Shown one piece after another: positions 18,493 through 28,810 of a DNA stretch of 64,000 nt. The stretch lies in assembly GCF_058153355.1 (NCBI RefSeq), contig NZ_CM177019.1, one strand, 5' to 3'. The notes beneath the pieces are model-generated. The model searched no databases and had not been told where the DNA came from. It saw nothing but the letters and a program-made list of their open reading frames with translations. Numbering within the stretch: position 1 is the stretch's first letter; each line of letters starts with the position of its first letter. A program made the translations under genes and the position numbers.

Positions 18493-19944
18493 TTATTTAT
18501 CAGTAGTCAAAACGGTAGCTTGCGGGACGGATGTACCGAAACGGTTTCCGACCAGGAAAGCCAGCAAACTTAGCAGCAACGAGGGCACGATAGGGTGGAA
18601 GCCCAGGTACTGAATATTCAGCGTCGCGAGTACGGCATACAGTACGCCGCCAACGATCATCGCACTTAGCGCGCCTTTGGCGTTGGCGCGTTCCCAGTAA
18701 AGACCCAGCACCAGCGGCCACAGGAAAACGGCTTCCAGCCCACCGAAGGCCAGCAAATTCAGCCAGATGATCATTTCTGGCGGCTTCCAGGCGGCAAGCA
18801 GCAGCAACGCACCGAGAACCAACGTGATCACCGCCGACATCCGCTTCAGACGCGTCTCGTTTTGCATTTGATCCGGACGGATATTCAGATAGAGATCTTT
18901 AATGATCGTAGCGGAACTTTGCAGCAACTGGGCATTGATCGTCGACATGATCGCAGCCATAGGTGCAGCCAGGAAGATCCCGGCAGCAAACGGTGGCAGC
19001 ACTTTTACCATCAACGTCGGGATCACCAGGTCCGGTACGGTGAGATCGGGGATCACCGCCCGACCTAACGCTCCGGCCAGGTGCATACCGAACATCAGGA
19101 TTGCGACCACAATCGTACCGATGATGATCCCCCGATGTACGGCTTTGCTGTCTTTATAAGAGATACAGCGCACCGCAGTATGCGGCAGGCCAATCACGCC
19201 AAAACACACCAGCACCCAGAACGACGTCATAAACGCAGGTGACAGAATATCGTCAGCGCCTTGTGGCGTAACCAGTTGCGGATCGATGGTTTGCAGCGTC
19301 TCTACCGCATTGCTTAAGCCGCCAGCAGCATGGACCACGCCAATAAGCAGCACAATGGTGCCAATCAGCATCACCAGCCCTTGCATGGTGTCGTTCAGCA
19401 CGCTGGCGCGAAAGCCGCCAAAGGCGGTGTAGAGCGCAATGCTGATGCCAAAAATCAGCAAACCTGTTTCATAAGGGATACCCGCCGCGGTTTCCAGCAG
19501 GCGCGCACCGCCGATAAACTGCACGGTCATCGCACCAACGAACGCAACCAGCAAACTCAAACTCGCCAGCCACACCAGCAGGCGACTCTGGTAGCGGGCA
19601 AACAGCATATCGTTCAGCGTCACCGCATTGTAGCGGCGCGCGAGAATCGCGAACTTCTTGCCGAGAATACCGAGCGAAAGCCAGACCGCAGGTAGCTGAA
19701 TCATTGCCAGCAATACCCAACCCAGGCCGTATTTATAAGCAGCTCCTGGCCCGCCGATAAACGAACTGGCACTGATATAGGTCGCGGTGAGCGTCATCGC
19801 CAGCACAATACCGCCCATAGAGCGGCTACCGAGGAAATACTCATTAAGGAAGGTGCCGGTGCTCCGTTTACGCATCGCATAAACAGAGATACCGAACACC
19901 ACCACCAGATAGGCGACCAGCGGTAGAATCACTTCAAGCTGCAT
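18493..19944 (-). CDS. panF: Sodium/pantothenate symporter
   Basis: SSS-family multi-TM protein; start set at second ATG (SD GGAGG 6 nt upstream), 483 aa. Confidence 0.93.
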
Positions 19945-20176
19945 CGTCATCCTCCAGTGGGATATCGCGATAGATAAATTTCACCATCGCCCAGCACAGT
20001 CCAATAAACAGCAGCGGCGTCAGGATGCAAGCCATCTCAAACCAGCGTGGAAAGCCGGTAAAACCGGGGGTAACGCCAGGTAAGTAAGCGGATACTAACC
20101 ATACCGCCAGATACAAAAGGGTCAGCCCCAGCGCCCAGCGCGCCTCTTTATGGGCCTGAACAAAACGAGTGTCCAC
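19934..20176 (-). CDS. yhdT: Small membrane protein YhdT (cotranscribed with panF)
   Basis: 80 aa from GTG start preceded by AGGAGG at 9 nt spacing; overlaps panF start by 11 nt. Confidence 0.8.
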   Translation of the reverse strand: MDTRFVQAHKEARWALGLTLLYLAVWLVSAYLPGVTPGFTGFPRWFEMACILTPLLFIGLCWAMVKFIYRDIPLEDDDAA

Positions 20177-20268
20177 GGAAGGGGTCCTCCTCATGGGGGG
20201 ATACGAGAAACGGGCAATTCTACGGCAACTCTTCAGGCAGGGAAAATAATCTGACAGAAAATTGCCGT

Positions 20269-21225
20269 TCAGTGCTGCTGCAAAAAGTCTTCAATGTCAG
20301 TCAGTGAGGATATCCCTTCCATCGGACCTTGCCGCATTACCGCGAGCGCGCCGCTGGCATTTGCATATTGCAGCGCCTTGTGTGCCGGGATACCGGATAA
20401 GAAAAGAGTGACAAACGTTGCGCCAAAGCAGTCGCCTGCACCCGTTGGATCGATTATTTCGATATCGTGGCCTGCAACATGCTTGGCGTGTAATGTTCCG
20501 TTTTTAATCTTGTAATAGCTGGCCCCACGCTGGGCGCGTTTTATCGCCACATGTTTTACGCCGCCGTGGAGAAGATCGCTAACAATCTGTTCTTCTGACA
20601 GATTTTTGTGACGCGCGAAGAAAGGGAGTTCGCTTTCGCTGGGGATAAAAATATCCGTATATTCAATCAAATAATCGAGAGCCTGCGCCATTTCAGGAAT
20701 ACTCAGCATCTCTTTGCGAATATTGGGATCGAAAGAAACGGTGCCGCCAGCCGATTTGATCGTCGTTATTGCTTTACGCATGACATCGATCATGCGAAAT
20801 GAGAACAATGATGAGCCCACAATATGCAGATGGTTACACTGTTTTAGCAGATCCTTATCAATGTGCTCGGCAGTAAACAAACCGCAGGCGCTGTTAGGGA
20901 TATTAAAGACGAAATCCCGCTGCTGGGGATTTTGATAACTCACGAATGCCGTACCTGTTACGGCATTGTTCATAACATGGATCCCATCGGTAATGACACC
21001 TTCATGACGGAGGCGCTCTATAATGAGTCGGCCAAAATCATCATTACCAACACATCCGAAGAAGATGGCCCGATGGGACAGTTTTGCCACCTGAGCAGCA
21101 AAAATTGCTGGTGCACCGCTGGGAAATGGCCCGATAAACTCCCCAGGCTGAGTGAATTTTTGATGTGGGTTGCGGGACAAAAACTCGGCCAGCAATTCGC
21201 CCATAGCGCAGATAGTTATTGTCAC
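20269..21225 (-). CDS. PfkB-family sugar kinase (island kinase 1)
   Basis: C-terminal DPTGAGDCFGATF and N-terminal GxxxGGAP-like PSGAPAIF motifs; paralogous to ORF 26760-27722; start set at GTG 21225 (GAGG 6 nt upstream; aligns with N-terminus of paralog) instead of ORF-track 21279. Confidence 0.8.
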   Translation of the reverse strand: MTITICAMGELLAEFLSRNPHQKFTQPGEFIGPFPSGAPAIFAAQVAKLSHRAIFFGCVGNDDFGRLIIERLRHEGVITDGIHVMNNAVTGTAFVSYQNPQQRDFVFNIPNSACGLFTAEHIDKDLLKQCNHLHIVGSSLFSFRMIDVMRKAITTIKSAGGTVSFDPNIRKEMLSIPEMAQALDYLIEYTDIFIPSESELPFFARHKNLSEEQIVSDLLHGGVKHVAIKRAQRGASYYKIKNGTLHAKHVAGHDIEIIDPTGAGDCFGATFVTLFLSGIPAHKALQYANASGALAVMRQGPMEGISSLTDIEDFLQQH

Positions 21226-21235
21226 AAAACCCCTC

Positions 21236-22066
21236 TCATTCCTGAAGCCTTTCGCGATTGGACCAGGTAAAGCACTCATTACTGGTATAAAGGATAACGA
21301 AATCAGCCGACTGCAATTGTTGCTGATATTGTTCGTTAATGCTGCGGCTGACGATCACATTTTCTGCCTGATGCAAATGCCCGATAGCAGCCGTTGATGG
21401 CGCAGGATCGGCGGCAACGATAACTGTCTTATTCTGGGCATGATCGAAACAGAGCTGCCAGGCAGCGGCAAGTCTGGGAACGTTGATATTTAAAGTACCA
21501 TCAGCATCCAGATGGCTGATTTCCAGAATGCTGTGTGTAATGGTGAAATGCTGAAGTGCCTGTTCGAGCGGTTTTCCGGCCAGTGCGGTGTCGGGGCGCA
21601 GCATTTCACTGCCAGCCAGTATTATTTCGCCATCAATAAACTGATTTGCCAGCAGCGCATGTTCGGGATCGTTGGTGATCAGACGCAGTTTTTTCACTTC
21701 GCTGAGCAATGGAATGATCTTACGGCAGATTGTCCCATGTCCAAGAAATAGCGTGTCACGATCCCGAATTAACCGTGCGCAATGTCGTGCTATTTCCATT
21801 TGTTGTGCCAGAGACAATGGCGCGATCGGTTGTATCGCTTCTGGTTCAGAGGAGAGTGGTGTCGCAATAGCACCGCCAAATGATCGCTTTAAATATCCCT
21901 GTTGCTCCAGATAACTGAGATCGCCGCGGATCGTCACGCCAGAGACACCAAGTTGCGCAGATAAGTCATCAACTTTGATTTCACCCTGGGCGGCAACAAT
22001 TTCTGCAATTTTTAATCTGCGTTTCAGTAGGTTAGACGATTTTCTCGGCACGTTAACACTCTTCAT
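21236..22066 (-). CDS. DeoR-family transcriptional regulator
   Basis: 276 aa; N-terminal HTH RRLKIAEIVAAQGEIKVDDLSAQLGVSGVTIRGDLSYLEQQGYLKR typical of DeoR/GlpR/AgaR, C-terminal sugar-phosphate sensor domain; stop is 10 nt before kinase 1 start. Confidence 0.85.
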   Translation of the reverse strand: MKSVNVPRKSSNLLKRRLKIAEIVAAQGEIKVDDLSAQLGVSGVTIRGDLSYLEQQGYLKRSFGGAIATPLSSEPEAIQPIAPLSLAQQMEIARHCARLIRDRDTLFLGHGTICRKIIPLLSEVKKLRLITNDPEHALLANQFIDGEIILAGSEMLRPDTALAGKPLEQALQHFTITHSILEISHLDADGTLNINVPRLAAAWQLCFDHAQNKTVIVAADPAPSTAAIGHLHQAENVIVSRSINEQYQQQLQSADFVILYTSNECFTWSNRERLQE

Positions 22067-22239
22067 TGGCCTTTAATGCGTAACACTATAGCCCCTTGTA
22101 TTTTTCTTTGAAAGTTACCCTTCAATAATATCGACAATTCGAAAATAAAAGCATAGGGCAAAAATTGCAGCAAAAATAGCTTAATGCATTGAAAATAAAT
22201 GAATATTTCCATATCTGTCCAAAGGCATCATTGGTTTCA

Positions 22240-22254
22240 TTTTCAAAGTGAAAA
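22240..22254. promoter_or_regulatory. Candidate operator palindrome TTTTCA-AAG-TGAAAA
   Basis: Perfect 6-3-6 inverted repeat in divergent intergenic region between DeoR gene and aldolase operon. Confidence 0.4.
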
Positions 22255-22337
22255 ATAAATTAAGTTATTTTTTGTAAGTTATTTTGATGATATTCGACAT
22301 GCGTCACGCTTTTTACCGCTTTTGCTGTGCTAGTTTG

Positions 22338-22352
22338 CTTTCAAAATGAAAG
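22338..22352. promoter_or_regulatory. Candidate operator palindrome CTTTCA-AAA-TGAAAG
   Basis: Perfect 6-3-6 inverted repeat about 55 bp upstream of aldolase ATG; related copy ttcattttgtaaggtgaa at 22368-22385. Confidence 0.4.
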
Positions 22353-22379
22353 TGAAGATTCTCTTTCTTCATTTTGTAA

Positions 22380-23261
<882 letters not shown>

Positions 23262-23296
23262 GACGTTGTACCCTACAAAAACAATGAGGATTGTTT

Positions 23297-24187
23297 ATGA
23301 AAAATATTAAATTACTTGGTTCCGCTATGATGGTGAGCCTGGCATTGTTCTCGCAAAGTTCATTGGCAAAAGAGTATAAAATTGGAGCTTCATTATTAAC
23401 ACAGCAACACCCTTTTTATATCGACCTCGCAAATGCAATGAAAGAAGAGGCGAAAAAAGACAATGTCAATTTAAGTGTCTCTATTGCCAATCAGGATTTA
23501 AACAAACAGCTTTCTGATGTTGAGGATTTTATTACTAAAAAGGTAGATGCCATTATTATCTCTCCGGTCGATTCGAAAGGTGTCCAGGCAGCGATAATTA
23601 AAGCCGATAAGGCTGGTATTCCCGTTATCACCGTTGACGTTGCCGCGGAAGGCGTTCCGGTCGTATCGCATGTTGCGACCGATAATTACGCGGGAGGCGT
23701 TGAAGCTGGTAAGTTAATGGGCAAACTTTTGAATGGTAAAGGTACTGTAGCCATTATTTCTTATCCTGCACTACAATCGGTGGTTGCACGCGTTGATGGC
23801 TTTAAGAAAGGATTAAGCGATACGCCGGATATTAAAATTGTTGCGGAACAGCCTGGTATTACGCGCGCTGAAGCGTTAACGACTACGCAAAATATTATGC
23901 AGGCCAACGCCAACCTGAATGGTCTGTTTGGCTTTGGTGATGATGCGGCGCTGGCGGCGGTTATAGCGGCGAAATCTGCGCATAACGACAACATCAAAAT
24001 CATTGGTTTTGATGGTATGAAAGAAGCGCGAGATGCCGTTGATAGTGAAAAAACGTTTGCGGCCGTGATTCGGCAATATCCCGATCAAATGGGTGCTAAA
24101 GCCATAGATGCCGCTGTTGATCACCTCAATGGTAAACCGGTAGAGAAAATGATCCCGGTACAACCCGGCGTTTATACAGGTAAATAA
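23297..24187 (+). CDS. Periplasmic sugar-binding protein (RbsB-like)
   Basis: 296 aa from ATG 23297 (GAGGA 6 nt upstream); signal peptide MKNIKLLGSAMMVSLALFSQSSLA; PBP type I fold similar to ribose-binding protein. Confidence 0.82.
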   Translation: MKNIKLLGSAMMVSLALFSQSSLAKEYKIGASLLTQQHPFYIDLANAMKEEAKKDNVNLSVSIANQDLNKQLSDVEDFITKKVDAIIISPVDSKGVQAAIIKADKAGIPVITVDVAAEGVPVVSHVATDNYAGGVEAGKLMGKLLNGKGTVAIISYPALQSVVARVDGFKKGLSDTPDIKIVAEQPGITRAEALTTTQNIMQANANLNGLFGFGDDAALAAVIAAKSAHNDNIKIIGFDGMKEARDAVDSEKTFAAVIRQYPDQMGAKAIDAAVDHLNGKPVEKMIPVQPGVYTGK

Positions 24188-24247
24188 TAAACATCTTCAT
24201 TTCACAACAAAACGTTATCGACGTTTTGTTGTGACACCGAGGTCATT

Positions 24248-25669
24248 ATGACGGATGTTATTCTTGATGTTTCGCATATTGCGAAGACATTTGGTCATGT
24301 TCAGGCATTAAAAGATATTACACTCTCTTTACGTAAAGGGCGGGTACATACTTTATTAGGTGAGAATGGTGCCGGTAAATCGACATTAATGAAAATATTG
24401 GCCGGTGTTTATCCGCCAACCCAGGGAACAATAAAACTACGTGGTGAAACTATCACAATTAATAATCCGCAGCATTCACGTCAGTTAGGGATTGCTATTA
24501 TTTTTCAGGAACTGAGCCTGAGTAATAATATGACCGTGGCGGAAAATATTTATGCCAATAATGAACCGCGACGTTTTGGCATTATTAACGATAAAAAAAT
24601 GCTCGCAGATTGCCAGAATCTCCTCGCGGAACTGGGCATCCCACTGGATCCGCTGGAAATGGTCGGCAATATGTCGATGGCACATAGGCAACTGGTAGAA
24701 ATTGCCAAAGCCTTAAGCTATGCAGCAGATGTCGTGATTATGGATGAACCGACATCTTCGCTAAGTGATAATGAAGCAGAGATTCTGTTTAACATTATTG
24801 AGAAATTAAAGCAGCGAGGTTGTGCGGTTATTTATATCTCTCATCGCATGGATGAAATTATGCGGATTTCAGATGATATTTCGGTGATCCGCGACGGTGA
24901 GTATATCGCTACGCATGAAAAGAAAAACAGTGATATCCAGCATTTGATTGCCCAAATGGTTGGTCGGGAAATGAAAAATATTTGGCCAGCACGTCTTGGG
25001 GAAAAGCCGGATGAAAATATTCCTGCAAAACTGGAAGTAAAAAACCTTTCCCATCCTTCGCTTTTTAAAGAGGTCAGTTTCGCTGTGCGTCCGGGGGAAG
25101 TCCTCGGATTTTTTGGCCTGGTGGGGGCCGGGCGTTCCGATGTGATGAAGGCGCTATTTGGCCTCATTTCGTATCACGGGACTGTGTTGATTGATGGTAA
25201 GGAAGTCAGGATCGCTAATCCCAAACAGGCCATTGATCATGGCATTGCATTTGTGACCGAAAACCGCAAGGAAGAAGGGTTAGTGCTGATGCACGACGTC
25301 AATATGAACACGCACCACGTGGCGTTTCAATATAACGCTTCGCGGATGGGACTCATCAATCACCGACAAGAAGAGACGAAGACGCTGCAATCTATTGCCA
25401 GAATGAATACTAAAGTGAGTTCTGTACATCAGGCTGTGGGGGCGCTAAGCGGCGGTAATCAACAGAAAATCGTGTTATCGAAGTGGCTGGAGAAAACCCC
25501 ACGTATTTTATTGCTCGATGAGCCTACGCGCGGAGTGGATGTCGGCGCAAAATTTGAAATCTATAACGTGATACGTCAACTGGCTGCGGCAGGAACAGCA
25601 ATTATTCTGGTGTCCTCTGAACTGCCTGAAGTCATGGCACTTAGCGATCGTCTGGTGGTTAATGCGTAA
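24248..25669 (+). CDS. Sugar ABC transporter ATP-binding protein, two-domain RbsA-like; apparent frameshift truncates C-terminus (remaining 28 codons continue in the next frame to 25748)
   Basis: Two nucleotide-binding domains (Walker A GENGAGKST and GLVGAGRSD, signature LSGGNQQK, Walker B LLLDEPTRGVD); ORF stops after ...LSDRLVVNA, while the next frame reads MRNKTIADIYSCENLTQTQVMTAATGVR and ends directly before the permease ATG. Confidence 0.8.
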   Translation: MTDVILDVSHIAKTFGHVQALKDITLSLRKGRVHTLLGENGAGKSTLMKILAGVYPPTQGTIKLRGETITINNPQHSRQLGIAIIFQELSLSNNMTVAENIYANNEPRRFGIINDKKMLADCQNLLAELGIPLDPLEMVGNMSMAHRQLVEIAKALSYAADVVIMDEPTSSLSDNEAEILFNIIEKLKQRGCAVIYISHRMDEIMRISDDISVIRDGEYIATHEKKNSDIQHLIAQMVGREMKNIWPARLGEKPDENIPAKLEVKNLSHPSLFKEVSFAVRPGEVLGFFGLVGAGRSDVMKALFGLISYHGTVLIDGKEVRIANPKQAIDHGIAFVTENRKEEGLVLMHDVNMNTHHVAFQYNASRMGLINHRQEETKTLQSIARMNTKVSSVHQAVGALSGGNQQKIVLSKWLEKTPRILLLDEPTRGVDVGAKFEIYNVIRQLAAAGTAIILVSSELPEVMALSDRLVVNA

Positions 25670-25748
25670 TAAAACGATTGCCGATATTTATTCATGTGAA
25701 AATTTAACGCAGACACAGGTAATGACCGCTGCAACAGGAGTACGTTAA

Positions 25749-26738
25749 ATGACAGAGAAAACTCTTGCCAGTCCGAAACCTTCGGAAATTCCCATTGCAA
25801 ATAATTTTAAAAAAGTCTTCAGGCAATATGGCGGTATCCTCAGTGGAATGGTGGTGTTAATCATTCTGTTCAGTTTTATTAATGACAGTTTTTTTACTGC
25901 CAATAACATTACTAATATTATTCTTCAGGTTTCGATAATTGCAATTACCGCCTATGGAATGACTTATGTACTTTTGCTTGGCGATATTGATTTATCGGTC
26001 GGTTCAACCATTGCATTGATTGGCACATTTGCTGCGCTTGGGGCTTCATGGGGAATTCCATTTATTTTATTGGTCCCATTATCCATTATTGTAGCCCTGG
26101 CTCTGGGGATGATAAATGGTGGCTTGACGGCTATAGCGGGTATCCCTTCGTTTATTGTCACCGTTGCTACAATGGGGATCTTCCGTGGTATCGCTTATAT
26201 AGTGACCGATGGTATGCCCATCATGATTAAAGATGATGCCTTTCTGGCGCTGGGGAATGGAGAATTTCTCTATATACCGATTCCTATCTGGATATTAATC
26301 ATCTTATTGCTGATTAACCACTTCATTCTTACTAAAACAACCTTTGGACGAAAAATTTATATCACTGGTGGTAATAAAGAAGCGGCAGTCTATTCAGGGA
26401 TAAATGTCACCCGCTTGAAAATTAAAGTCTTTATGATTACAGCCGTGCTGGCAGGTATCAGCGGGATGATCCTCGCCTCACGCCTCTATTCCGGGCAACC
26501 GAATTCCGCGTTGAGCTACGAACTGGATGCTATTGCCGCGGCTGTACTGGGAGGCACCAGCCTGAACGGCGGCTATGGAACCGTGGTGGGGACGGTGATC
26601 GGCGCATTAACCATCGGCGTTATTAATAATGGCATGAACTTAATGAATGTTCCCTATTTTTACCAGATGGTGGTTAAAGGATTAGTCATTCTTGTAGCCG
26701 TTTATTTTGACGTAAGAAATAAAAGAAAACGCAGCTAA
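25749..26738 (+). CDS. Sugar ABC transporter permease (RbsC-like)
   Basis: 329 aa, about 10 TM segments, start codon abuts the frame-restored stop of the ATPase. Confidence 0.82.
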   Translation: MTEKTLASPKPSEIPIANNFKKVFRQYGGILSGMVVLIILFSFINDSFFTANNITNIILQVSIIAITAYGMTYVLLLGDIDLSVGSTIALIGTFAALGASWGIPFILLVPLSIIVALALGMINGGLTAIAGIPSFIVTVATMGIFRGIAYIVTDGMPIMIKDDAFLALGNGEFLYIPIPIWILIILLLINHFILTKTTFGRKIYITGGNKEAAVYSGINVTRLKIKVFMITAVLAGISGMILASRLYSGQPNSALSYELDAIAAAVLGGTSLNGGYGTVVGTVIGALTIGVINNGMNLMNVPYFYQMVVKGLVILVAVYFDVRNKRKRS

Positions 26739-26759
26739 TCATTTCAAGGAATTAATCAT

Positions 26760-27722
26760 ATGAGTAAGGTCTTCACAATTGGAGAAATTCTTGTTGAAAT
26801 TATGGCGAGTAAAATCGGCCAGCCATTTGATCAACCAGGTATCTGGAACGGCCCTTATCCCAGTGGTGCGCCCGCTATTTTTATCGACCAGGTGACACGT
26901 CTTGGCGTTCCGTGCGGCATCATTAGCTGTGTGGGGAATGATGGCTTTGGTGATATTAATATACATCGTTTGGCTGCTGATGGTGTGGATATCAGGGGGA
27001 TTTCAGTCTTACCTCTGGAAGCCACCGGTAGCGCCTTTGTTACTTATCATAACTCTGGCGATCGTGATTTTATTTTTAATATCAAGAATGCCGCTTGCGG
27101 TAAATTATCGGCGCAGCATGTTGATGAAAATATTCTGAAGGACTGTACCCATTTTCATATTATGGGTTCATCCCTGTTTTCATTCCATATGGTAGACGCA
27201 GTAAAGAAAGCGGTAACCATTGTAAAGGAGAATGGTGGCGTTATTTCTTTCGACCCTAATATTCGGAAAGAGATGCTCGATATTCCAGAAATGCGTGACG
27301 CCCTCCACTTTGTTCTTGAGTTAACAGATATCTATATGCCCAGCGAGGGAGAAGTGTTGCTCTTGTCGCCACACTCGACACCGGAGCGTGCAATCGCTGG
27401 TTTTCTTGAAGAAGGTGTTAAAGAGGTGATTGTGAAGCGCGGCAATCAAGGTGCCAGTTACTACTCCGCGAATGAGCAGTTTCATGTTGAGAGCTATCCG
27501 GTGGATGAAGTTGACCCGACCGGTGCGGGAGACTGCTTTGGTGGCGCGTGGATTGCCTGCCGCCAGCTAGGGTTTGACGCCCATCGGGCATTACAATATG
27601 CCAACGCCTGCGGTGCACTGGCGGTAACCCGACGTGGCCCAATGGAGGGAACGTCTCGCCTTGCGGAAATCGAAGCGTTCATCCAGCGCCATGACATGTC
27701 CATTCGGGAAGCAGCACAATGA
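26760..27722 (+). CDS. PfkB-family sugar kinase (island kinase 2)
   Basis: 320 aa; DPTGAGDCFGGAW anion-hole motif, PSGAPAIF N-terminal motif; paralog of kinase 1. Confidence 0.82.
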   Translation: MSKVFTIGEILVEIMASKIGQPFDQPGIWNGPYPSGAPAIFIDQVTRLGVPCGIISCVGNDGFGDINIHRLAADGVDIRGISVLPLEATGSAFVTYHNSGDRDFIFNIKNAACGKLSAQHVDENILKDCTHFHIMGSSLFSFHMVDAVKKAVTIVKENGGVISFDPNIRKEMLDIPEMRDALHFVLELTDIYMPSEGEVLLLSPHSTPERAIAGFLEEGVKEVIVKRGNQGASYYSANEQFHVESYPVDEVDPTGAGDCFGGAWIACRQLGFDAHRALQYANACGALAVTRRGPMEGTSRLAEIEAFIQRHDMSIREAAQ

Positions 27723-28765
27723 AAAACGAAATTTGGTCGTGGATTGGCGATCTCTCGCAGGTTGCCGGAATTAAACACTATGAGTTACGTAGTGGCAGAT
27801 CAAAGGGGACAGAAGCGTTTGATGTCCGTACTGGTGCGGGATTGGCATTTACGGTGGTAAAAGATCGCGCGCTGGATATTGCATGGGCCAGCTACAAGGA
27901 CACTGCGCTCTCTTTTATCACCCCCAACGGCATTGTCGCGCCTGCTTTTTTTGAGCCGCAGGGCAATGGATTTTTGCGTAGCTTCTACGCGGGATTACTG
28001 ACCACATGCGGACTTAGCTACATTGGGACGCCCTGTGAGGATGAAGGAGAAACGCTGGGATTACCCGGACGTTTGGCTGCGACACCAGCGGAAGAGGTGG
28101 GATATCGCACAGAACGGACCGACGACGGCATTGAATTTGTCATCAATGGCAAATTACGGGAAACGCGATTGTTCGGTGAAAATCTGACGTTGGAAAGGAC
28201 CATTCGCTGCCGCTATGGCGAAAATGTGCTGCGCATTGAAGACAAGGTGACTAATCATGGTTTCACCCGCCAGCCGCTGCAAATTCTTTATCACTTTAAT
28301 TACGGCTGGCCTTTATTATCGCCACAGGCAGAAATCTTGCTGTCGGCTAAAAGCGTAACGCCACGAACCCCGCATGCGGCGGAAGGGTTAACCAGTCATC
28401 TGGAGATTTGTACCCCACAGCCCGGTTTTGACGAGCAGGTTTACTATCTCACGTTGAATAGCGACAGTCAGGGGATGAGTAAAGTTGCGCTGGTGAACGC
28501 CGAACTGGGGTGGGGAATTTACGAGAAATTCGACACCATGCAGCTACCCAACTTTATCCAGTGGAAAAATTTAGGCGCGGGTGAATATGTTATGGGGCTG
28601 GAGGTCAGCAATAGTTTTCCTGACGGTCGTGATAAAGAACGAGCGCAGGGGCGTCTGCCCTTTATAGAGCCAAGGGAAACAAAGACATACTGCTTTGAGC
28701 TGGGAATTGTTGATGGCGATGCTGAAATTAGCGCGTTGAAAGCGGAAATTGCAGGCTACCGTTAG
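27719..28765 (+). CDS. Uncharacterised protein, possibly aldose-1-epimerase/mutarotase-like (DUF-type)
   Basis: 348 aa, no recognisable catalytic motif by eye; start overlaps kinase 2 stop by 4 nt (ATGA), so translationally coupled; family assignment is a guess. Confidence 0.5.
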   Translation: MKNEIWSWIGDLSQVAGIKHYELRSGRSKGTEAFDVRTGAGLAFTVVKDRALDIAWASYKDTALSFITPNGIVAPAFFEPQGNGFLRSFYAGLLTTCGLSYIGTPCEDEGETLGLPGRLAATPAEEVGYRTERTDDGIEFVINGKLRETRLFGENLTLERTIRCRYGENVLRIEDKVTNHGFTRQPLQILYHFNYGWPLLSPQAEILLSAKSVTPRTPHAAEGLTSHLEICTPQPGFDEQVYYLTLNSDSQGMSKVALVNAELGWGIYEKFDTMQLPNFIQWKNLGAGEYVMGLEVSNSFPDGRDKERAQGRLPFIEPRETKTYCFELGIVDGDAEISALKAEIAGYR

Positions 28766-28775
28766 TTAACGGTAA

Positions 28776-28810
28776 TAAAAACGCCGGGCAGCCTTAACAG
28801 GCCCGGCGTT
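28776..28810. terminator. Bidirectional hairpin between convergent island operon and accC
   Basis: Perfect 10 bp stem aacgccgggc/gcccggcgtt with 11 nt loop; T-run on minus-strand side (accC terminator), A-run on plus side. Confidence 0.7.

What the first reader, a model, noticed from the sequence alone, without database searches (positions are those of the whole stretch)
27719..28765. Translationally coupled 348 aa protein of unknown function at the operon's end
The last operon gene encodes a 348 aa soluble protein with no signal peptide and no motif I can assign. Its start overlaps the kinase 2 stop (ATGA), which implies stoichiometric co-expression with the kinase. Position and size fit a sugar or sugar-phosphate isomerase, epimerase or mutarotase-like accessory enzyme, but this is a guess. 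It is the least understood component and the likeliest to specify the substrate.
Basis: inference. Interest (0 to 1): 0.5.

Follow-up and report, generated by a model that had tools for sequence, protein, structure and literature searches.

The report
Tagatose operon's mutarotase-like last gene
The gene is the already published but biochemically untested last gene (tagE) of the E. coli D-tagatose operon; it encodes a mutarotase-fold protein that probably interconverts ring forms of the sugar for the kinase, and this strain's copy has lost a near-invariant active-site histidine.

Summary
There is an intact 348-codon ORF at 27719-28765(+), and its ATG overlaps the TGA of the upstream PfkB kinase (ATGA).

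The 8.5-kb island between yhdT and accC is the published E. coli Nissle D-tagatose cluster, tagK-tagR / tagYABCDE. This gene is tagE, annotated "aldose 1-epimerase family". Its activity has never been tested.

The family keeps a GalM-like His/His/Glu set (H116, H192, E295, each in at least 344 of 348 relatives). It is under purifying selection (dN/dS 0.05-0.08). Elsewhere it sits next to mannosidases, lyxose/mannose isomerases and sugar kinases.

My best reading is inferred, not shown: a cytoplasmic mutarotase that opens the dominant tagatopyranose form so that the 6-kinase receives furanose, as RbsD does for RbsK and GalM for GalK.

This lineage's allele carries H116P and G319R, and tagB has a frameshift. 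All three are absent from 5,426 complete E. coli genomes but recur in independent assemblies, so the operon is probably disabled here.

Ordinary and already known; modest interest.

The parts
27719..28765 (+). tagE coding sequence (348 aa plus TAG): DUF4432, galactose-mutarotase-fold protein, last gene of tagYABCDE
27719..27722 (+). ATGA: the tagE start codon overlaps the tagD (tagatose kinase) stop codon
   Evidence: Read directly. Conserved in L001, L008, L009 and L011.
27706..27711 (+). SD-like GGGAAG, 7 nt before the ATG, inside the 3' end of tagD
   Evidence: Read directly. GGGAAG or AGGAAG is kept in orthologous operons of three genera. Function inferred.
28064..28066 (+). Codon 116, CCC = Pro, where the family has His (LGLHGR). 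Aligns with GalM His104 (LHGG)
   Evidence: His in 345 of 348 other DUF4432 proteins, Pro in none. All E. coli cluster representatives have His. No complete E. coli genome matches the 61-mer exactly. hhalign and motif alignment to GalM.
28292..28294 (+). Codon 192, His (LYHFNYG), candidate catalytic acid. Aligns with GalM His175 (NHVYFNL)
   Evidence: His in 347 of 348. hhalign alignment. Role inferred.
28433..28435 (+). Codon 239, Glu (DEQVYY), possible counterpart of the sugar-binding Asp243 of GalM
   Evidence: Glu in 316 of 348. Its position between the second His and the Glu fits, but hhalign did not align it to D243. Weak.
28601..28603 (+). Codon 295, Glu (MGLEVSNSFPDG), candidate catalytic base. 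Aligns with GalM Glu309 (GLALESEFLPDS)
   Evidence: Glu in 344 of 348. hhalign alignment. Role inferred.
28673..28675 (+). Codon 319, AGG = Arg, where the family has Gly (EPGE turn)
   Evidence: Gly in 291 of 348. Window-specific against L001 and L008. No exact 61-mer in 5,426 genomes.
28780..28810 (.). 10-bp GC-rich hairpin (AACGCCGGGC ... GCCCGGCGTT) between the convergent tagE and accC; probable shared terminator
   Evidence: RNA fold -25.3 kcal/mol, z -2.6. The T-run lies on the accC side. The simple terminator scan did not call it.
26760..27722 (+). tagD, PfkB-family D-tagatose kinase, the gene coupled to tagE
   Evidence: Pfam PfkB. NCBIfam TagKinase 413 bits against a cutoff of 420. Deleting the Nissle orthologue abolishes growth on tagatose (PMC9720028).
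22407..26738 (+). Upstream genes of the same operon: tagY aldolase (22407-23261), tagA binding protein (23297-24187), tagB ATPase (24248-25669, frameshifted) and tagC permease (25749-26738)
   Evidence: Pfam and NCBIfam. Annotation of L001. A single TSS upstream of tagY in Nissle (PMC12226905).
25657..25660 (+). Extra T (GGTT here, GGT in all other genomes) that frameshifts tagB. Stop at 25667-25669, 473 aa instead of 499 aa
   Evidence: Alignment to L001. None of 1,420 cluster-bearing genomes shares it. The same frameshift is in the independent assembly L095, where no tagB CDS is called.
20269..22066 (-). Divergent reg operon: tagR (DeoR repressor, 21236-22066) and tagK (second PfkB kinase, annotated 20269-21204)
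   Evidence: Pfam. L001 annotation. PMC12226905.

Best explanation
The gene is tagE, the sixth and last gene of the D-tagatose-inducible operon tagYABCDE of E. coli. It encodes a cytoplasmic enzyme with the galactose-mutarotase beta-sandwich fold (Pfam DUF4432).

Proposed mechanism (inferred). Like GalM, it uses a Glu base (E295) and a His acid (H192), with a second His (H116) positioning the ring oxygen, to open and re-close the hemiketal ring of the free sugar. D-tagatose is imported by the ribose-type ABC system TagABC and exists mainly as alpha-pyranose. In that form O6 is part of the ring. The PfkB kinase TagD phosphorylates O6, so it needs the furanose or open-chain form. TagE would speed the pyranose-to-furanose interconversion and feed the kinase to which it is translationally coupled. 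It would be an accessory, rate-enhancing step rather than an essential one. RbsD (ribose pyranase) does the same for RbsK, and GalM for GalK.

In the strain sequenced here the allele carries H116P and G319R at near-invariant positions, and the transporter ATPase gene tagB is frameshifted. TagE is therefore probably crippled and the operon probably non-functional in this lineage.

Shown: the ORF, the coupling, the family, the fold, the conservation pattern, the operon identity, the mutations and their recurrence in independent assemblies. Inferred: the catalytic residue roles, the substrate being free tagatose, the pyranose-to-furanose direction, and the loss of function.
For: Identity and context. 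The island lies between yhdT and accC and has the same eight genes as the Nissle tag cluster. PMC9720028 and PMC12226905 show that the six-gene operon confers growth on tagatose, that all six genes are induced more than 40-fold, and that there is one TSS.

Active site. H116, H192 and E295 are conserved in 345, 347 and 344 of 348 relatives. A profile-profile alignment places them on GalM H104, H175 and E309. The L. lactis GalM active site comprises R71, H96, H170, D243 and E304 (PMC5622589; mutant structures are listed).

Selection. dN/dS is 0.05-0.08 between genera.

Coupling. The ATGA overlap is conserved in three genera. galK and galM overlap in the same way in K-12.

Free-sugar-level role. 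In 88 loci the tightest neighbours are GH38 mannosidases (14 within 1.5 kb), D-lyxose/mannose isomerases (17) and PfkB kinases (13). Sugar kinases lie within 5 kb in 21 of 47 fully flanked loci. The closest non-enterobacterial relatives sit beside PfkB kinases, cupin isomerases and ribose-type ABC transporters.

Chemistry. D-tagatose is predominantly alpha-D-tagatopyranose (PMC12429656). rbsUDK provides the pyranase-plus-kinase precedent (PMC3146418).

Mutations.. The exact allele and the frameshift are present in other assemblies.
Against: No DUF4432 protein has been assayed. Two literature searches on DUF4432, tagatose and mutarotase found nothing functional.

Sequence similarity to true aldose 1-epimerases is undetectable. 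Pfam Aldose_epim gives no hit even at E 10. hhalign is not significant (E 0.42 and 0.076). The residue equivalences therefore rest on a weak alignment plus motif resemblance, and I could not superpose coordinates.

Ketose ring interconversion is comparatively fast without an enzyme (own knowledge). Alpha- and beta-proteobacterial tagatose clusters with the same kinase and transporter lack a DUF4432 gene. Any contribution may therefore be small.

No tagE deletion has been tested.

In many loci the obvious sugar is an aldose (mannose released by GH38 or GH92), so the family need not be ketose-specific. About 40% of fully flanked loci show no recognisable sugar genes nearby.
Confidence: 0.55

Rival explanations
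1. TagE is a sugar-phosphate mutarotase, like YeaD or yeast Ymr099c (hexose-6-phosphate mutarotase). It would interconvert the alpha and beta furanose anomers of D-tagatose 6-phosphate, the product of TagD, so that PfkA receives the anomer it accepts.
Against: In other phyla the gene sits at the free-sugar end of pathways, directly after glycosidases and before transporters and isomerases. Furanose phosphate anomers interconvert quickly, and no such helper is known for fructose 6-phosphate (own knowledge). The structural match to 6-P mutarotases is no better than to GalM-type enzymes.
Confidence: 0.12
2. TagE is a conventional aldose mutarotase whose real substrate is not tagatose. It would act on a lyxo- or manno-configured aldose (D-lyxose, D-mannose or D-talose) or on another natural substrate of the island, perhaps the one served by the second kinase TagK.
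For: The most frequent tight partners in other phyla are D-lyxose/mannose isomerases and alpha-mannosidases, which points to mannose or lyxose. TagK and TagE are both functionally unassigned. The D-tagatopyranose ring has the same stereochemistry as D-lyxopyranose, so a lyxose- or mannose-type pocket could be ancestral (stereochemical reasoning, own knowledge).
Against: The E. coli island has no isomerase or glycosidase that would produce or consume such an aldose. tagE is induced by tagatose, within the operon that suffices for growth on tagatose. It is coupled to the tagatose kinase in three genera.
Confidence: 0.15
3. TagE is not a mutarotase at all. It would be either a true epimerase or isomerase (for example a replacement for tagatose-6-phosphate 4-epimerase) or a non-catalytic sugar-binding or regulatory protein.
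For: It is positionally equivalent to the S. meliloti Tag-6-P epimerase gene, as the authors noted. The GalM-like fold also occurs as a non-catalytic domain in many glycosidases and lyases. No activity data exist.
Against: The pathway is complete without an epimerase: TagD, PfkA and TagY suffice. No GalM-fold protein is known to invert a non-anomeric carbon (own knowledge). Near-invariant His/His/Glu at GalM-equivalent motifs and dN/dS of 0.05-0.08 indicate a conserved catalytic site. The best structural matches are free-standing enzymes, not accessory domains.
Confidence: 0.06
4. In this particular strain the gene is a decaying relic. Whatever TagE does elsewhere, here the operon is being lost, and the 348-aa ORF is intact only because the damage is recent.
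For: H116P hits a residue that is His in 345 of 348 relatives. G319R hits one that is Gly in 291 of 348. Against the closest genome, 4 of the 7 differences in tagE are non-synonymous, compared with 14 of 95 in the other genes. The tagB frameshift removes 26 C-terminal residues, and the gene is not called as a CDS in the matching NCBI assembly. All three changes are absent from 5,426 complete genomes but are real, being seen in 5 contigs and 2 NCBI protein records.
Against: Lineage-specific changes across the operon are still mostly synonymous (32 synonymous, 9 non-synonymous). The truncated TagB might retain function. H-to-N mutants of the equivalent GalM histidine were stable enough to crystallise with sugar bound (1NSU), so residual activity is possible. 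This reading is compatible with the best explanation rather than a true alternative to it.
Confidence: 0.6

Closest known systems
tagE (ECOLIN_RS18670 / HW372_RS02470) of the E. coli Nissle 1917 D-tagatose cluster (Ha et al. 2022, PMC9720028; 2025, PMC12226905)
   Same: Same locus (between tagD and accC, in the yhdT-accC island) and same eight-gene organisation. About 97% amino-acid identity to the main E. coli cluster representative. Same RefSeq name, 'aldose 1-epimerase family protein'.
   Different: This allele has Pro116 and Arg319 where other E. coli copies have His and Gly. The tagB gene upstream is frameshifted. The published work never tested the gene's function.
3TY1, KPN_04629 of Klebsiella pneumoniae (structural-genomics 'putative aldose 1-epimerase'), the only solved DUF4432 structure
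   Different: Only 25-26% identical. It belongs to a 402-aa subfamily with a Sec signal peptide, encoded as an isolated gene between tpx and tyrR rather than in a sugar operon. No function is assigned.
Galactose mutarotase GalM / aldose 1-epimerase (EC 5.1.3.3; Pfam PF01263)
   Different: No detectable sequence homology. The predicted substrate is a 2-ketohexose, not an aldose. The anomeric carbon would be quaternary, so the pocket must accommodate a CH2OH group.
RbsD (D-ribose pyranase) and FucU family
   Same: The proposed job is the same: convert the imported pyranose into the furanose needed by a PfkB-family kinase, encoded within a ribose-type ABC transporter operon (precedent; TagA, TagB and TagC resemble RbsB, RbsA and RbsC).
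   Different: Unrelated fold and sequence. This is functional analogy only, and it is inferred.
YihR (sulfoquinovose mutarotase), YeaD (hexose-6-P mutarotase) and YphB of E. coli K-12
   Same: All are GalM-fold accessory enzymes embedded in or next to sugar pathways. yphB is the last gene of an ABC-transporter operon, and yihR sits with a PfkB kinase and an aldolase.
   Different: They belong to Pfam Aldose_epim, and TagE does not. Their substrates are aldoses or aldose phosphates.

Membership tests
Pfam DUF4432 (PF14486) | Score above the curated gathering threshold over the whole domain | tested here: met
   339.4 bits against a cutoff of 32.5, residues 29-329 on profile positions 2-303 of 304. 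All 34 aligned homologues also match.
E. coli tag operon gene tagE | Located directly downstream of the tagatose kinase gene, as the last gene of tagYABCDE, in the island between yhdT and accC | tested here: met
   Gene order and flanks match the descriptions in PMC9720028 and PMC12226905.
E. coli tag operon gene tagE | Near-identity to the E. coli protein cluster | tested here: met
   97% identity to P0001, the representative of 2,319 member sequences. The window protein is a member of that cluster.
Galactose mutarotase-like fold (free-standing mutarotases) | Beta-sandwich fold superposable on GalM, YeaD or Ymr099c | tested here: met
Aldose 1-epimerase family proper (Pfam Aldose_epim PF01263, EC 5.1.3.3) | Sequence match to the Aldose_epim profile | tested here: not met
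   No hit for any of 34 family members even at E 10. hhalign against GalM and its paralogues gives E 0.42 and 0.076.
Aldose 1-epimerase family proper | Catalytic Glu base and His acid (L. lactis E304 and H170; E. coli E309 and H175) | tested here: inconclusive
   E295 and H192 are present here and near-invariant in the family (344 and 347 of 348). They align to E309 and H175 in a statistically weak profile alignment. No coordinate superposition was possible.
Aldose 1-epimerase family proper | Second active-site His (L. lactis H96; E. coli H104) | tested here: not met
   The family has His in 345 of 348 members, but this allele has Pro116.
Aldose 1-epimerase family proper | Measured mutarotase activity | not testable with these tools
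   No assay exists for any DUF4432 protein in the searched literature.
RbsD/FucU pyranase family | Homology to RbsD or FucU | tested here: not met
   The only Pfam hit is DUF4432, and the structural neighbours are all GalM-like. This is considered only as a functional analogue.
Tagatose-6-phosphate 4-epimerase (S. meliloti / A. tumefaciens type) | Homology to the epimerase encoded at the equivalent position in alphaproteobacterial tag clusters | tested here: not met
   No aldolase- or GatZ-type domain. The authors of PMC9720028 also report that the sequences are highly divergent.

The most novel reading that the evidence does not exclude
DUF4432 would be a separate, large clade (about 4,900 clusters at 50% identity) of GalM-fold mutarotases specialised for lyxo-configured rings. 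That class covers D-mannose and D-lyxose next to mannosidases and lyxose isomerases, and D-tagatose in Enterobacteriaceae, because the D-tagatopyranose ring is D-lyxopyranose carrying a CH2OH on the anomeric carbon. TagE would then be the first enzyme known to catalyse ring-form interconversion of a free 2-ketohexose, a 'tagatose pyranase' that supplies furanose to a PfkB kinase. It would have reached by convergence the job that RbsD does for ribose.
Probability: 0.3. Interest if true: 0.45.

Novelty: already known. Interest (0 to 1): 0.25.

Why it matters
The tag cluster lets E. coli, especially phylogroup B2 and the probiotic Nissle 1917, grow on the sweetener D-tagatose. It is also being developed as an inducible expression system. 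tagE and tagK are its only unassigned genes.

Showing that TagE is a ketose ring-form interconverting enzyme would give a function to a DUF family of several thousand clusters. It would also explain the family's recurrent place in mannoside and rare-sugar loci, and it might improve engineered tagatose or rare-sugar pathways.

For this window the practical message is smaller. The gene is a known, annotated accessory enzyme, and in this lineage the operon is probably disabled.

Tried and rejected
(1) Sequence bridges to true mutarotases failed. hhalign of the family alignment against E. coli GalM alone found only a spurious 21-column match. Against GalM, YeaD, YihR, YphB and orthologues it gave a full-length but non-significant alignment (E 0.076). 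Pfam Aldose_epim did not hit any member at E 10. A profile search of PDB sequences found only 3TY1.

(2) A homologue search with GalM, meant to build a diverse profile, returned only orthologues at 76% identity or more. It was of little use.

(3) The AFDB fold library was not available, so I could not check for curated UniProt names among structural neighbours.

(4) Domain fusions were uninformative. Longer family members carry only N-terminal extensions or a probably mis-merged Lon domain. The 493-aa kinase::DUF4432 protein in an E. coli is an internal-deletion product, not a natural fusion.

(5) The genomic context of the solved-structure subfamily (3TY1-like) is an isolated exported gene between tpx and tyrR, which says nothing about substrate.

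(6) The idea that the odd residues are sequencing errors is rejected. The exact protein and the frameshift recur in independent assemblies.

(7) The idea that the whole operon has long been under relaxed selection in this lineage is rejected. Lineage-specific changes are 32 synonymous against 9 non-synonymous.

(8) The simple terminator scan did not call the hairpin after tagE. Folding shows it.

(9) Literature searches for DUF4432 function, a tagatose mutarotase, or lyxose isomerase together with a mutarotase found nothing relevant.
Full report
**1. The observation**

- Its ATG (27719-27721) overlaps the TGA (27720-27722) of the upstream PfkB-kinase ORF 26760..27722, giving ATGA.
- A purine-rich GGGAAG lies 7 nt upstream, at 27706-27711.
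- RefSeq annotation of the closest complete E. coli genome calls the same start and the same 4-nt overlap.
- The overlap and the SD-like motif are kept in orthologous operons of Escherichia, Superficieibacter and Enterobacter.
- A 10-bp GC-rich hairpin (28780-28810, -25.3 kcal/mol) follows the stop, and accC converges from the other strand. It is therefore the last gene of its operon.
- The N-terminus has no hydrophobic signal segment.

**2. What the protein is**

It is a full-length member of Pfam DUF4432 (PF14486; 339 bits against a cutoff of 32.5; E 1.8e-101). No NCBIfam model covers it.

The only solved relative by sequence is 3TY1, a structural-genomics "hypothetical aldose 1-epimerase" from Klebsiella (E 2.6e-29).

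An AlphaFold2 model built on 34 homologues is confident (pLDDT 91, pTM 0.90). Its structural matches are:

At the sequence level the link to true aldose 1-epimerases is invisible. Pfam Aldose_epim does not hit any of 34 members even at E 10, and hhalign is not significant. It is therefore a separate family with the mutarotase fold, not a member of Aldose_epim.

The family is large: 4,905 cluster representatives at 50% identity with E 0.001 or better, and 1,542 with E 1e-30 or better.

**3. The locus is already published**

The 8.5-kb block 20269-28765 lies between yhdT (19934-20194) and accC (28857-). On the + strand it encodes:
- a GatY-type class II tagatose-bisphosphate aldolase;
- a ribose-type ABC transporter (binding protein, ATPase, permease);
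- a PfkB kinase that scores 413 bits on NCBIfam "tagatose kinase" (cutoff 420);
- this gene.

A DeoR regulator and a second PfkB kinase are transcribed divergently. About 26% of complete E. coli genomes (1,422 of 5,426) carry the block at 95-99% identity.

This is the "EcN tag cluster" of Ha et al. 2022 (PMC9720028). It sits between accC and yhdT and is absent from K-12.
- The six-gene operon is necessary for growth on D-tagatose, and it confers that growth on K-12.
- Deleting the kinase abolishes growth, and PfkA is needed for the second phosphorylation.
- All six genes are induced more than 40-fold by tagatose.

The 2025 follow-up (PMC12226905) named the genes tagK-tagR / tagYABCDE, found a single transcription start upstream of tagY, and showed that TagR is a tagatose-responsive repressor.

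Our gene is tagE. Both papers call it a putative aldose 1-epimerase and state that its function was not tested.

**4. Evidence that it is a working enzyme with mutarotase-type chemistry**

I compared 348 other DUF4432 sequences, drawn from database hits and 88 genomic loci.

| Position | Motif | Residue | Conserved in |
|---|---|---|---|
| 116 | LGLHGR | His | 345 of 348 |
| 192 | LYHFNYG | His | 347 of 348 |
| 239 | (none given) | Glu | 316 of 348 |
| 295 | GLEPxN | Glu | 344 of 348 |

- These motifs resemble GalM's LHGG (His104), NHVYFNL (His175) and GLALESEF (Glu309) in both order and local sequence.
- A greedy profile-profile alignment, although statistically weak (E 0.076), puts H116, H192 and E295 exactly on those three residues.
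- The active site of L. lactis GalM is R71, H96, H170, D243 and E304 (PMC5622589). The PDB holds the H96N, H170N, D243N/A and E304Q/A mutants.
- Between genera, tagE has dN/dS of 0.05-0.08, like its operon neighbours. It is maintained by selection.

I could not superpose coordinates, so the residue equivalences remain inferred.

**5. What neighbourhoods elsewhere say**

I examined 88 loci: 80 from one-genome-per-species contigs and the rest from metagenomic contigs.
- **Enterobacteriaceae.** In four genera (Escherichia, Superficieibacter, Klebsiella spallanzanii, Enterobacter) the gene is always the last gene of the tag operon, next to accC.
- **Bacteroidota.** About 14 loci share the arrangement GH92/GH38 alpha-mannosidases > DUF4432 > (MFS) > D-lyxose/mannose isomerase > PfkB kinase > mannitol-dehydrogenase family.
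- **Bacillus and Paenibacillus.** ABC transporter > lyxose isomerase > DUF4432.
- **Firmicutes.** Fucose_iso_C isomerase > DUF4432 > class II aldolase > FGGY kinase.
- **Closest non-enterobacterial relatives (52-57% identity).** These sit beside PfkB kinases, cupin isomerases and a ribose-type ABC transporter.

Counts within 1.5 kb: lyxose isomerase in 17 of 88 loci, GH38 in 14 of 88, PfkB in 13 of 88. Among the 47 loci with at least 5 kb on both sides, a sugar kinase lies within 5 kb in 21, and some recognisable sugar-catabolic gene in 27.

The gene's position, after glycosidases and before transporter, isomerase and kinase, points to action on free sugars.

**6. Proposed mechanism (inferred)**

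D-tagatose exists predominantly as alpha-D-tagatopyranose (PMC12429656). In a 2-ketohexopyranose O6 is the ring oxygen, so a 6-kinase must use the furanose or open-chain form (chemistry, own knowledge).

TagE, made by translational coupling with the kinase, would catalyse ring opening and closure, with Glu295 as base and His192 as acid. That would keep the minor furanose pool replenished.

There are two precedents:
- RbsD, the ribose pyranase encoded with ribokinase (PMC3146418; RbsD biochemistry from own knowledge).
- GalM, whose gene likewise overlaps galK in K-12.

There is also a stereochemical observation (own reasoning). The D-tagatopyranose ring (C3-C5 = L,L,R) is the D-lyxopyranose ring with CH2OH on the anomeric carbon, and D-mannose is D-lyxose with CH2OH on C5. 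This would tie the tagatose context to the lyxose/mannose-isomerase and mannosidase contexts. It is a hypothesis, not a result.

Several points argue against a large role:
- Ketose tautomerisation is relatively fast without an enzyme.
- Alpha- and beta-proteobacterial tagatose clusters lack the gene.
- No tagE mutant exists.

I put this explanation at about 0.55. The rivals are a Tag-6-P anomerase of YeaD type (0.12), an aldose mutarotase for another substrate (0.15), and a non-mutarotase role (0.06).

**7. This strain's copy is damaged**

The window protein has Pro at 116, where 345 of 348 relatives and every other E. coli cluster representative have His and none has Pro. It has Arg at 319, where 291 of 348 have Gly.

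Against the closest complete genome (98.7% identity over the island), tagE has 7 nucleotide differences, 4 of them non-synonymous. In the other seven genes 14 of 95 differences are non-synonymous.

Upstream, tagB carries an extra T (GGTT at 25657-25660). It ends at 25669, giving 473 aa instead of 499 aa, and leaves a 79-nt gap before tagC.

None of the 5,426 complete genomes has an exact 61-mer across any of the three sites. The changes are nevertheless not read errors:
- The exact TagE protein is in NCBI (EGO8352985.1, HFG3509897.1) and on five contigs.
- The exact truncated TagB is in an independent assembly.
- Contig DAXYJU010000036.1 of GCA_043012465.1 matches the window with 2 mismatches in 19,047 bases. 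It has the same frameshift and no CDS called for tagB.

Lineage-specific changes across the operon are still mostly synonymous (32 against 9), so the damage is recent. The operon is probably non-functional in this lineage. That is inferred and was not tested.

**8. Verdict**

- It is wrong that the gene is unassignable and wrong that it specifies the substrate.
- The gene and operon are already described and annotated. What remains open is the biochemical activity of TagE and of DUF4432 in general.
- Interest is modest (0.25).
- The most novel reading still open is a GalM-fold "tagatose pyranase" within a lyxo-sugar mutarotase family. It deserves roughly 0.45 if true, and I give it about 0.3 probability.

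Noticed in passing
window 25657-25669 (tagB, 24248-25669): A one-base T insertion frameshifts the ABC-transporter ATPase gene. The product is 473 aa instead of 499 aa, with a 79-nt gap before tagC. None of the 1,420 other cluster-bearing complete genomes has it, but an independent NCBI assembly of the same lineage does, and there the gene is not called as a CDS.
   Followed up: yes
L008 (E. coli E69, CP089930.1) compared with window 20269-28765: The species-representative E. coli genome carries a much more divergent tag island (dS 0.38-0.76 per gene against the window; TagE 94% identical), whereas 1,421 other genomes are 95-99% identical. Two old allele classes or separate acquisitions seem to coexist in E. 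coli.
   Followed up: partly
L093 8001-9209, L094 4469-5677; proteins P0390-P0509: The solved structure 3TY1 belongs to a different DUF4432 subfamily: 402-aa proteins with a clear Sec signal peptide (MKIKFAFTLLAVLVSGHAAA/K). They are encoded as an isolated gene between tpx and tyrR in many Enterobacterales. Superficieibacter electus has both paralogues on one contig. A periplasmic mutarotase-fold protein of unknown role.
   Followed up: partly
L013, L029, L032, L035, L036, L042, L050, L051, L053, L064, L077 and others: Bacteroidota share a conserved operon: GH92/GH38 alpha-mannosidases > DUF4432 > (MFS) > D-lyxose/mannose isomerase > ~400-aa PfkB kinase > mannitol-dehydrogenase family. It looks like an uncharacterised route from mannoside to mannose to fructose to fructose phosphate.
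   Followed up: partly
L003 8496-13643; L006 1432-7085; L027: Firmicutes have a cluster of AraC regulator, FGGY kinase, class II (FbP-type) aldolase, a ~470-aa Fucose_iso_C isomerase, DUF4867 and DUF4432. The sugar is unknown.
   Followed up: no
proteins P0011, P0016, P0019 (E. coli tagE variants): Disrupted tagE alleles are present in public E. coli data: a 292-aa N-terminally frameshifted form (290 member sequences), a 213-aa form (127 members), and a 493-aa TagD::TagE fusion made by an internal deletion. Some may be assembly artefacts.
   Followed up: no
window 22085-22112 (- strand): [quoted passage not shown]
   Followed up: partly
window 20269-21279 (- strand): The mechanical ORF for the second kinase (336 aa) runs 25 codons upstream of the annotated start (311 aa, 20269-21204) and overlaps the end of tagR. 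The longer ORF is probably an artefact of ORF extension.
   Followed up: partly
L002 2798-3838 and 3832-4980 (E. coli K-12 galM and galK): galM, the classical mutarotase gene, is also the last gene of its operon, and its start overlaps the end of galK by 7 nt. This is the same kinase-to-mutarotase coupling seen for tagD-tagE.
   Followed up: yes
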